From assembly GCA_000004985.1 (NCBI GenBank), contig GG739491.1: a stretch of 1,228 bases of DNA. One strand, 5' to 3'. Origin of the DNA: Naegleria gruberi (lineage: Eukaryota). Below, piece after piece: positions 1 through 1,228 of this stretch. Below the pieces are notes generated by a model. That model was not told the DNA's origin and made no database searches. It saw nothing but the letters and a program-made list of their open reading frames with translations. Both the position numbers and the translations under genes were made by a program. Numbering within the stretch: position 1 is the stretch's first letter; each line of letters starts with the position of its first letter.

Positions 1-64
1 TTGATGATTCCAACAAGTGTTGACGATTATTGTTGGATTCTGTATAATTTAAACCGACAACCAT
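1..64 (-). CDS. Possible 5' end of a leftward gene. ATG is the complement of 62-64. It reads MVVGLNYTESNNNRQHLLESS... and runs off the left edge. Very uncertain.
   Basis: The minus-strand frame is stop-free from 175 down to 1, which is 58 codons (chance of about 1% for one given frame). The only ATG is at 64-62. No Shine-Dalgarno sequence is present; the upstream context is ccagaagaac. There is no recognisable protein similarity. Region 1-87 is also open in + frame 1 (..MIPTSVDDYCWILYNLNRQPCSSGEQL*), so the coding strand, if any, cannot be decided. Confidence 0.15.
   Translation of the reverse strand, partial: MVVGLNYTESNNNRQHLLESS
20..48 (+). promoter_or_regulatory. Near-consensus sigma70/sigmaA-type promoter. 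The -35 is TTGACG (20-25), the spacer is 17 bp, and the -10 is TATAAT (43-48). The predicted transcription start is about 55-57, reading rightward.
   Basis: Read directly from the sequence: ttgacg-attattgttggattctg-tataat. That is a 5/6 match at -35, a 6/6 match at -10 and optimal 17-bp spacing. No other promoter-like site of this quality exists on either strand of the window. Caveat: 1-87 is also open in + frame 1, and 1-175 is open on the minus strand, so the promoter may lie inside or overlap flanking coding sequence. Confidence 0.45.
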
Positions 65-370
65 GTTCTTCTGGAGAACAGTTGTAAATATTTGATTAAT
101 GATAATAGAAATTGCTCTAAATGTTGCACACAACTGTTGGTTGAGATTAAGCAACAATGGAATCGAGTACTTTTTTCAAAATAGTTCTAATTATTGGAGG
201 AGCATGTTGAGGACACACCCAATGATTCAATAGTCTCCGGTCTTATTAGGGTTGAATAATCCTTCATTATCGCTGTAATAATTCTTTCTAAGCAGCATTT
301 GGAAGCGTAACCACAATTGTTTCCCTACTATGTTATTGTTCAAAAAACAAGTTCGGTACAGCGGGAATAA

Positions 371-462: not shown

Positions 463-660
463 ATGATGTTAAAAAACTGTAGATTACCAATGAAATGTAG
501 TGATGGATTCTTATGTTGTATTACAATGAAACATCAATGCCCTTCAATTTATTTCTATCGCCCAAAACACATATTTTTGTGTGACCCTCAATGCTTCATC
601 TTAATGCCAGGTTTTGAGATAAAAATTTTAAGGATTAGGAAATTGTGTGCGTTTGTATAG
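463..660 (+). CDS. Hypothetical 65-aa cysteine-rich ORF. It is probably not a real gene.
   Basis: This is the only ATG-to-stop ORF of 65 aa or more in the window (8 Cys in 65 aa). No GGAGG-like Shine-Dalgarno sequence is upstream; the nearest purine run is gaagag at 445-450, 12 nt before the ATG. Its 3' end runs into the inverted-repeat element (605 onward). With TAA, TAG and TGA making up about 8% of codons in this AT-rich DNA, a 74-codon open stretch somewhere in six frames is about a 50:50 chance event. The protein is not hydrophobic, so it is not toxin-like, and it carries no recognisable motif. Confidence 0.12.
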   Translation: MMLKNCRLPMKCSDGFLCCITMKHQCPSIYFYRPKHIFLCDPQCFILMPGFEIKILRIRKLCAFV

Positions 661-751
661 AATCACAAGACATCAACAAGCAATTGCTAATAGAAATCTA
701 TTTTCGTTAAATACAATGAACCAACTATCTCAAAACCTGGCAGTACCATGA
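596..751. mobile_element. Candidate non-autonomous MITE-like element of about 140-156 bp, with terminal inverted repeats starting 5'-TG and ending CA-3' and no internal ORF.
   Basis: The terminal inverted repeats are described in the repeat feature. TG...CA termini are typical of IS3, IS481 and many other IS families. The interior (622-725) is AT-rich with no coding capacity. No flanking target-site duplication is visible: the flanks are cttaa on the left and gtacc on the right. That weakens the call. Confidence 0.25.
605..742. repeat. Perfect 17-bp inverted repeat TGCCAGGTTTTGAGATA (605-621) and TATCTCAAAACCTGGCA (726-742), separated by 104 bp. It extends imperfectly to about 26 bp per arm (596-621 and 726-751, about 23 of 26 positions matching).
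   Basis: Verified base by base. The reverse complement of 726-742 is identical to 605-621. The outer flanks continue to pair at 602-603/744-745 and 596-599/748-751. A 17-bp perfect inverted repeat is not expected by chance in 1.2 kb (expected count about 1e-4 to 1e-3). Confidence 0.9.
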
Positions 752-1035: not shown

Positions 1036-1228
1036 CTAACCTAATAATTTACATACTTCATATAATAATTCAGCTTTCTTAATAGGCTTAATTAGAACCT
1101 TGTTGATACCTGTGTCAAGTAGAGAATTAATCTCCTCTTTCGCACTGTTTCCAGTTAAAGCTATTATTGTATTATTGGTGTTGTTATCTTTTTTTCTCTT
1201 CTAAGTATTCGTGTTGTTTCTAAACCCA
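1036..1228 (-). CDS. 3' end of a gene encoding a two-component receiver (REC/CheY-like) domain. The 5' end lies beyond the window. The reading frame is interrupted by a 1-nt frameshift at the T7/A7 tract (1189-1195), so this is either a homopolymer sequencing error or a pseudogene.
   Basis: My own reverse-complement translation. Codons from 1199 down to 1036 read KRKKDNNTNNTIIALTGNSAKEEINSLLDTGINKVLIKPIKKAELLYEVCKLLG, then stop (TAG = complement of 1036-1038). This matches the conserved C-terminal half of receiver domains: the hydrophobic beta4 strand plus T/S ('IIALTG'), and the beta5/alpha5 segment 'VLIKPIKKAELL' with the conserved Lys-Pro. That frame has an upstream TAG (complement of 1201-1203). 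The adjacent -1 frame reads GLETTRILRREKK (complement of 1226-1188), which is the expected preceding 'DG-LE--R-LR' receiver segment. The two frames join if the A7 run were A8. No downstream terminator is evident. Confidence 0.75.

What the first reader, a model, noticed from the sequence alone, without database searches (positions are those of the whole stretch)
596..751. Perfect 17-bp (extended about 26-bp) inverted repeat flanking a 104-bp AT-rich core: candidate MITE or long RNA stem
TGCCAGGTTTTGAGATA at 605-621 is exactly reverse-complemented at 726-742. Pairing continues outward with a few mismatches to 596/751. The arms begin TG and end CA, as transposon termini of the IS3 and IS481 families do. 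The core has no ORF. A match this long is not a chance event in 1.2 kb. Alternatives are a 17-bp RNA helix closing a 104-nt loop in a transcript from either strand, or a1/a2-like arms of a retron-type ncRNA. No reverse-transcriptase gene is adjacent, so the retron reading is weak. The left arm overlaps the 3' end of the 65-aa ORF, consistent with an insertion into older sequence.
Basis: seen in the sequence. Interest (0 to 1): 0.55.

Follow-up and report, generated by a model that had tools for sequence, protein, structure and literature searches.

The report
Lone inverted repeat in Naegleria spacer
The 17-bp perfect inverted repeat is real and unlikely to be chance, but it lies in non-coding spacer DNA of the amoeba Naegleria gruberi, not in a bacterium; it is most likely an ordinary small transposon relic or a replication-copying scar, and which one could not be settled.

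Summary
TGCCAGGTTTTGAGATA (605-621) is exactly reverse-complemented at 726-742. With mismatches the repeat extends to 596-621/726-751 (23 of 26 paired), around a 104-nt core of 29% GC. No shuffle of 3000 gave a perfect repeat this long within 300 nt.

The context changes the reading. The window is eukaryotic nuclear DNA of Naegleria gruberi. Its right end (1228 to 1039, minus strand) is the C-terminal receiver domain of a hybrid histidine kinase. That domain is broken by an 8-bp tandem duplication and matches an N. gruberi partial gene model 19 of 19 residues. The repeat lies in the roughly 1-kb non-coding spacer, 285 nt past that gene's stop. The IS3/IS481 and retron readings therefore do not apply.

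There was no Rfam match. The core folds no better than shuffles, so only the arms give structure. No convincing target-site duplication was found, only a chance-level TA. No second copy turned up in any reachable collection, but none of them holds this genome.

- **Best guess (0.4):** a MITE-like, non-autonomous DNA-transposon relic.
- **Rivals:** an inverted copy made by replication template switching (0.2), a functional hairpin or palindrome (0.1), and chance (0.07).

Interest is low.

The parts
596..621 (.). Left arm of the inverted repeat. The perfect block is 605-621 (TGCCAGGTTTTGAGATA); the outer 9 nt (596-604) pair at 6 of 9 positions.
622..725 (.). 104-nt AT-rich core (29% GC). It has no meaningful ORF and no secondary structure beyond the level of shuffled sequence on either strand.
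726..751 (.). Right arm of the inverted repeat. The perfect block is 726-742 (TATCTCAAAACCTGGCA); the outer 9 nt (743-751) pair at 6 of 9 positions.
602..603 (.). TA dinucleotide. Together with 744-745 it is the only symmetric direct repeat flanking the arms. It is a possible Tc1/mariner-type target-site duplication if the element ends at 604/743. It is at chance level and self-complementary, so it is also simply part of the extended palindrome.
744..745 (.). TA dinucleotide, partner of 602-603.
1039..1228 (-). Context: the C-terminal part of a receiver (response-regulator) domain of a hybrid histidine kinase gene, running off the right end of the window. The stop codon TAG is at 1038-1036. 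The reading frame is broken at 1162-1177.
1162..1177 (.). Context: an 8-bp unit repeated twice in tandem (TATTATTG x2 on the + strand; CAATAATA x2 on the coding strand). It shifts the receiver frame. Removing one copy restores ...EKKITTPIIALTGNS..., which aligns without gaps to the Naegleria and Willaertia homologues.

Best explanation
The repeat marks a small (about 138-156 bp), non-coding, MITE-like or foldback element. It would be a relic of a non-autonomous cut-and-paste DNA transposon, sitting in the roughly 1-kb spacer downstream of a frameshifted hybrid histidine-kinase gene in the nuclear genome of Naegleria gruberi. In this reading the 17-26-bp arms are terminal inverted repeats, once bound and cut by a transposase supplied in trans from an autonomous element elsewhere in the genome. 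The AT-rich core is filler. The copy is probably inert now.

Shown: the repeat, its size, the lack of coding capacity and of core structure, and the eukaryotic intergenic location. Inferred and not shown: mobility, family membership, the transposase superfamily, and the exact termini.
For: - The repeat is real and far above shuffles and above the background in 23 kb of a related Naegleria genome, where the best nearby inverted repeats are 18-19 nt at 84-89% with no perfect 17-mer.
- The size, arm length and AT-rich non-coding core are typical of MITEs (established knowledge; reviews found).
- The arms are a compositional island: 41% GC against 29% in the core and 30-31% in the flanks. The inner boundary of the repeat is sharp.
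- The core is unstructured as RNA on both strands and nothing matches Rfam. The arms therefore look like DNA-level termini, not the closing helix of a compact RNA.
- The element lies between genes, in DNA that is non-coding in every frame.
- Naegleria genomes do carry DNA transposons, with PiggyBac and CMC-EnSpm reported in N. lovaniensis. Most N. gruberi repeats are unclassified.
Against: - No target-site duplication was found at 605/742 or 596/751. The only symmetric candidate is a TA at 602-603/744-745, which is at chance level.
- All three arm mismatches lie in the outermost 9 nt. True transposon termini are usually the best-conserved part of an element.
- No second copy was found in phage, plasmid, viral, prokaryotic-genome or metagenome collections. 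This is weak evidence, because none of them holds the N. gruberi genome.
- Naegleria genomes are poor in transposons: 0.28% classified transposable elements and 5.1% total repeats in N. gruberi.
Confidence: 0.4

Rival explanations
1. The repeat is a de novo inverted duplication made by replication template switching, or an older weak palindrome perfected by it or by conversion between the arms. The polymerase briefly copied a nearby stretch from the opposite strand. This wrote a perfect 17-nt reverse-complement copy 104 nt from its template. It would be a neutral mutational scar with no mobility and no function.
For: - A single perfect block with sharp edges sits inside a weaker palindrome (6 of 9 outer positions pair). 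This is the pattern described for template-switch mutations that create or perfect hairpin stems (PMC8794818, PMC10710096, PMC7954356).
- No target-site duplication was found and no other copy.
- The neighbourhood carries another replication-slippage scar, the 8-bp tandem duplication at 1162-1177.
- The genome is poor in transposons.
Against: - Described short-range template switches mostly involve short loops and closely spaced source and target. A 104-nt spacer is at the long end.
- The higher GC content of the arms relative to their surroundings is not predicted by this reading.
- The event cannot be polarised without an outgroup sequence.
Confidence: 0.2
2. The repeat is a functional hairpin or palindrome. 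It could be the stem of a hairpin RNA, such as a substrate for small-RNA processing. It could also be a pair of inverted protein-binding sites acting on the neighbouring genes.
For: - The whole 168-nt segment folds well below shuffles on both strands (z -4.07 on + and -3.25 on -).
- 23 pairs over 26 positions would be long enough for a double-strand-specific RNase (inference).
- The perfect block could reflect selection.
Against: - All of the stability comes from the arms; the core is at shuffle level.
- There is no Rfam match at E up to 10.
- A 104-nt open loop is unlike known microRNA or small nucleolar RNA precursors (my knowledge).
- The homologous gene in N. lovaniensis has only a 43-bp downstream spacer and nothing comparable, so there is no sign of conservation.
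- No expression data are available.
Confidence: 0.1
3. The repeat is a chance match in AT-rich non-coding DNA, noticed because many windows were read.
For: A first-order Markov null predicts about 4 perfect inverted repeats of at least 17 nt with a spacer of 300 nt or less per 41-Mb genome. Three of 3000 shuffles reached 17 nt at any spacing.
Against: - The expectation is about 1.2e-4 per window, and 0 of 3000 shuffles reached it within 300 nt.
- The arms are richer in GC than the background, which makes this particular match roughly eight times less likely than an average 17-mer (my estimate).
- The further 6 of 9 outward pairing has a probability of about 0.02 (my binomial estimate).
Confidence: 0.07
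4. The element is a bacterial mobile element or retron: an IS3/IS481-derived MITE, or the a1/a2 arms of a retron non-coding RNA.
For: The arms start with TG and end with CA. The inverted repeat flanks a non-coding core.
Against: - The DNA is eukaryotic. The adjacent gene fragment is 19/19 identical to an N. gruberi gene model and 50-60% identical to Naegleria and Willaertia hybrid kinases.
- There is no 3-5-bp duplication at 605/742.
- No reverse transcriptase or transposase appears in any frame.
- The 17-mer hits in 185,579 prokaryotic species genomes are all single-arm matches and about as many as chance predicts: 82 stretches against about 69 expected (my estimate), with none extending beyond 27 nt.
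Confidence: 0.01

Closest known systems
Eukaryotic MITEs (for example Stowaway-like, Tc1/mariner-derived elements with a TA duplication)
   Same: Total length is 138-156 bp. The terminal inverted repeats are 17-26 bp. The core is AT-rich and non-coding, and the location is intergenic and close to genes. A TA dinucleotide lies one base outside each perfect arm.
   Different: Multiple copies have not been shown and no matching autonomous element is known. The TA is at chance level and lies inside the extended palindrome. With ends at 604/743 the terminal bases (A...G) are not complementary. The host genome is unusually poor in transposons.
Template-switch mutations that create perfect hairpin stems (PMC8794818, PMC10710096, PMC7954356)
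   Same: A perfect reverse-complement block with sharp edges lies near its presumed template. No target duplication is needed. The block sits inside a weaker pre-existing palindrome.
   Different: The 104-nt spacer is longer than most described events. No outgroup is available to show a single-step origin.
Bacterial IS3/IS481-type terminal repeats and IS-derived MITEs
   Same: TG...CA ends, and a short non-coding element bounded by inverted repeats.
   Different: The host is a eukaryote. There is no 3-5-bp (IS3) or longer (IS481) target duplication. No related sequence was found in prokaryotic genomes.
Retron msr/msd flanking repeats (a1/a2)
   Same: An inverted repeat brackets a non-coding segment of about 100 nt.
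   Different: There is no reverse transcriptase nearby, the genome is eukaryotic, and there is no Rfam retron match.

Membership tests
MITE (non-autonomous class II transposon) | Terminal inverted repeats | tested here: met
   17/17 perfect, 23/26 extended
MITE (non-autonomous class II transposon) | Small size (under about 800 bp) and no coding capacity | tested here: met
   138-156 bp. Only ORFs of 21-36 aa overlap the core. No Pfam hit in any frame.
MITE (non-autonomous class II transposon) | Target-site duplication directly flanking the termini | tested here: inconclusive
   A scan of 22 symmetric boundaries for duplications of 2-10 bp found only TA at 602-603/744-745. More than one such 2-bp match is expected by chance (my estimate). 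There is none at 605/742 (TTAA against GTAC) or at 596/751.
MITE (non-autonomous class II transposon) | Many dispersed copies with different flanks in the host genome | not testable with these tools
   The N. gruberi genome is in none of the searchable collections. The exact 17-mer and paired-arm scans found no related locus. Exact-protein look-ups for N. gruberi genes and window ORFs returned nothing.
MITE (non-autonomous class II transposon) | An autonomous partner element with matching terminal repeats | not testable with these tools
   There is no access to N. gruberi transposon sequences or to Repbase.
IS3 / IS481-derived bacterial element | Prokaryotic host and relatives in prokaryotic genomes | tested here: not met
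   The source is Naegleria gruberi. The 82 hits in prokaryotic genomes are single-arm matches of at most 27 nt, about as many as chance predicts.
IS3 / IS481-derived bacterial element | TG...CA termini with a short direct target duplication | tested here: not met
   TG...CA is present, but there is no direct repeat at 605/742.
Retron non-coding RNA | Adjacent reverse-transcriptase gene | tested here: not met
   A six-frame Pfam scan found only the receiver domain.
Retron non-coding RNA | Match to known msr/msd RNA models | tested here: not met
   No Rfam match at E up to 10 apart from a chance long non-coding RNA hit elsewhere in the window.
Structured non-coding RNA | Fold more stable than shuffles beyond a single helix, or a match to a curated family | tested here: not met
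   The core has z +0.55 and +0.46. There is no Rfam family and no tRNA or tmRNA.
Structured non-coding RNA | Conservation with covarying arms in relatives | not testable with these tools
   The only reachable homologous locus (N. lovaniensis, L086) has a 43-bp spacer and no similarity outside the coding part.
Template-switch inverted duplication | Perfect reverse-complement block close to its template, with sharp edges | tested here: met
Template-switch inverted duplication | A sister lineage shows the ancestral state with only one arm | not testable with these tools
   No close relative's sequence of this spacer is available.

The most novel reading that the evidence does not exclude
The repeat is the founding or only intact copy of a Naegleria foldback element or hairpin locus that is transcribed and processed into small RNAs. 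It might have been born in a single template-switch event. That would make it a caught-in-the-act example of de novo hairpin-RNA gene birth in a deep-branching eukaryote.
Probability: 0.04. Interest if true: 0.45.

Novelty: new member of a known kind. Interest (0 to 1): 0.12.

Why it matters
It matters little as it stands. If the element proves to be one of many copies, it would add a MITE family to a genome whose repeats are mostly unclassified, which is of modest use for Naegleria annotation. If it is single-copy, it is one more neutral inverted repeat.

The practical lesson concerns the scan. This window is eukaryotic DNA. Bacterial frames of reference (IS families, retrons, sigma-70 promoters, table-11 ORFs) mislead here. 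The 11/12 sigma-70-like promoter at 20-48 is also at chance level.

Tried and rejected
- **Alternative genetic codes.** All three stop codons occur in all six frames at about the random rate, so the spacer is non-coding in any code.
- **Hidden pseudogenes in the spacer.** A six-frame Pfam scan found only the receiver domain.
- **Known RNA families, tRNA and tmRNA.** None was found.
- **Source or copies in phage and plasmid records.** No match.
- **Exact 17-mer in viral contigs.** None. In 185,579 prokaryotic species genomes it gave 82 single-arm hits, against about 69 expected by chance (my estimate). None extended beyond 27 nt and none had the second arm.
- **Paired-arm pattern in viral and metagenome contigs.** Three metagenome loci (L083-L085) share only the 12-mers.
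- **Exact-protein look-ups.** Four window ORFs and the two N. gruberi models P0121 and P0009 were not on record.
- **First protein search.** The repaired 60-aa fragment found nothing through the word index. The full HMMER scan, the cluster look-up and then the profile search identified the organism.
- **Orthologous-position test in N. lovaniensis.** The locus was fetched, but the downstream spacer there is 43 bp with no homology, so the test was uninformative.
- **Bacterial inverton reading** (invertible promoter between inverted repeats). I considered this before the source was known and dropped it: the genome is eukaryotic, no recombinase is present, and the core has no promoter-like site.
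- **Intron with pairing ends.** There is no coding potential on either side.
- **Box C/D or H/ACA small nucleolar RNA.** I could see no box motifs in register (inspection).
- **Literature.** A search for the arm sequence returned only unrelated primers. The N. gruberi genome paper is not held.

Full report
**1. The observation**

The window contains the inverted repeat exactly as described. The arms are 596-621 and 726-751: 26 nt, 23/26 complementary, with 104 nt between them. The perfect block is TGCCAGGTTTTGAGATA at 605-621, reverse-complemented at 726-742. Pairing ends abruptly on the inner side. The three mismatches are all in the outer nine positions.

- In 3000 dinucleotide-preserving shuffles of the window, the longest perfect inverted repeat with a spacer of at most 300 nt was 15 nt. 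At any spacing, 3 shuffles reached 17.
- A first-order Markov simulation with the window's composition gave 2 such repeats in 20 Mb. That is about 4 per 41-Mb genome, or about 1.2e-4 per window.
- The arms are 41% GC in a 29-31% background, which makes this particular match rarer than average.

The repeat is therefore very unlikely to be chance in this window. A scan of a whole genome would still meet a few chance cases.

**2. What the window is**

No frame holds an ORF longer than 65 codons. Stops of all three kinds occur in all six frames at about the random rate, so the DNA is non-coding in any genetic code. A six-frame Pfam scan found one thing only: a receiver domain on the minus strand at the right end.

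That fragment is split over two frames. TRF finds an 8-bp unit repeated twice at 1162-1177. Removing one copy restores ...LRREKKITTPIIALTGNSAKEE...KLLG-stop. This aligns without gaps, at 50-60% identity, to the C-terminal receivers of hybrid histidine kinases of Naegleria lovaniensis, N. gruberi and Willaertia magna, and to one unnamed ENA metagenome protein. tblastx against the intact N. lovaniensis gene shows the same two-frame split.

A profile search then returned P0121, 'predicted protein, partial [Naegleria gruberi]', on a 413,107-bp contig. P0121 ends ...GLETTRILRREKKITTPII, which is 19/19 identical to the window's translation up to the frameshift.

The window is therefore nuclear DNA of Naegleria gruberi (Heterolobosea). 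The kinase reading frame stops at 1038-1036. Bases 1-1035 are downstream spacer. The repeat starts 285 nt past the stop.

**3.

IS3/IS481 ancestry and a retron are bacterial frames and do not apply. Independently of that:

- No direct repeat flanks 605/742 (TTAA against GTAC) or 596/751.
- The only symmetric candidate among 22 boundary pairs is TA at 602-603/744-745. It is at chance level and is itself part of the palindrome.
- No reverse transcriptase or transposase is present.
- The 65-aa ORF that the left arm overlaps is of the length expected once by chance in this window (my estimate from the 171 stops). It has no family match and no record as a called gene.

**4. RNA or DNA**

The 168-nt segment folds with z -4.07 (+ strand) and -3.25 (- strand) as RNA, and -3.71 as DNA. 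The 104-nt core alone is at shuffle level on both strands (z +0.55 and +0.46). Nothing matches Rfam at E up to 10. There is no tRNA or tmRNA.

All the structure is the arms. This is what terminal repeats of a DNA element, or a bare inverted duplication, look like. It is not what a compact functional RNA looks like.

**5. Search for other copies and for conservation**

- Phage and plasmid records gave no match.
- Viral contigs gave none, for the 17-mer or for paired arms.
- Prokaryotic species genomes gave 82 single-arm hits, against about 69 expected by chance (my estimate). None extended past 27 nt.
- Metagenome contigs gave three loci that share only the 12-mers.

None of these collections holds the N. 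gruberi genome. Exact-protein look-ups for N. gruberi models and window ORFs returned nothing. Copy number in the host, which is the decisive criterion, could not be tested.

The N. lovaniensis homologue was reachable (L086). There a convergent gene follows after 43 bp, and nothing outside the coding part is similar. No conservation test was possible either.

In those 23 kb of Naegleria DNA, the best nearby inverted repeats are 18-19 nt at 84-89%, with no perfect 17-mer.

**6. Explanations**

*Best, at about 0.4:* a MITE-like or foldback relic of a non-autonomous DNA transposon.

- For it: the size, the arm length, the AT-rich non-coding unstructured core, the GC-richer arms with a sharp inner edge, and the intergenic position. 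DNA transposons are also present in Naegleria genomes, and N. gruberi repeats are largely unclassified.
- Against it: no target duplication, mismatches confined to the outermost bases, no second copy seen, and a transposon-poor genome (0.28% classified elements, 5.1% repeats).

*Rival, at about 0.2:* a template-switch replication error, or conversion between the arms, that wrote or perfected a 17-nt inverted copy inside a weak palindrome.

- This explains the sharp perfect block, the imperfect outer pairing and the missing duplication. It also sits beside another slippage scar, the 8-bp duplication.
- The 104-nt spacer is long for described events (PMC8794818, PMC7954356).

*Other rivals:*

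- A functional hairpin RNA or a pair of binding sites (about 0.1) has no positive evidence beyond the arms.
- Chance is about 0.07.
- Bacterial readings are about 0.01.

The remaining probability covers an internal repeat of a larger, decayed element, and things I have not thought of.

**7. Novelty and interest**

Whichever reading is right, this is a known kind of thing: a small inverted-repeat element or scar in eukaryotic spacer DNA. I rate it 'new member of a known kind' with low interest (0.12).

The most novel reading not excluded is a transcribed hairpin locus born by template switching in a deep-branching eukaryote. I give it about 4%.

A single BLASTN of 596-751 against the N. gruberi assembly and a close relative would settle the matter.

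Noticed in passing
window 1039-1228 (minus strand), duplication at 1162-1177: The hybrid histidine-kinase receiver domain is frameshifted by an 8-bp tandem duplication (CAATAATA x2 on the coding strand). The N. gruberi gene model P0121 is 'partial' and stops exactly there. This is either a young pseudogene or allele, or an assembly error.
   Followed up: yes
window 6-48 (+ strand): A near-consensus sigma-70-type promoter (TTGACG, 17 nt, TATAAT; 11 of 12) is overlapped by an 11-nt inverted repeat (6-16 / 30-40). It looks like a bacterial promoter with an operator. However, 114 of 1000 shuffles reach 11/12 and the DNA is eukaryotic, so it is fortuitous.
   Followed up: yes
window 1-175 (minus strand): A reading frame stays open from the stop at 178-176 to the left edge of the window, with an ATG at 64-62 (MVVGLNYTESNNNRQHLLESS...). 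It may be the start of the next gene on the minus strand. If so, the repeat lies about 530 nt upstream of it.
   Followed up: no
window 563-585: A small AT-rich palindrome, AAAACACATATTTTTGTGTG (ACACA/TGTGT stem), lies just left of the repeat. It was not reported by the terminator scan, and its significance is unknown.
   Followed up: no
window 463-660 (+ strand): The 65-aa ORF is rich in cysteine (9 of 65). It has no Pfam match, is not on record as a called gene, and is of a length expected about once by chance here.
   Followed up: partly
L083 2061-2241 and L084 3153-3356 (metagenome Ga0209679): These are contigs unrelated to the window. They carry hairpin-forming repeats built around GACCAGGTTTTGAG / CTCAAAACCTGGT. 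L084 shows a unit of about 47 bp repeated in tandem. They share only the 12-mer with the window.
   Followed up: no
L001-L082 (prokaryotic genomes): Many of the chance 17-mer hits fall in Bryobacteraceae/Bryobacterales and Chitinophaga genomes. This suggests the 17-mer lies in a conserved gene segment of those groups. It has no relation to the window beyond 17-27 nt.
   Followed up: partly
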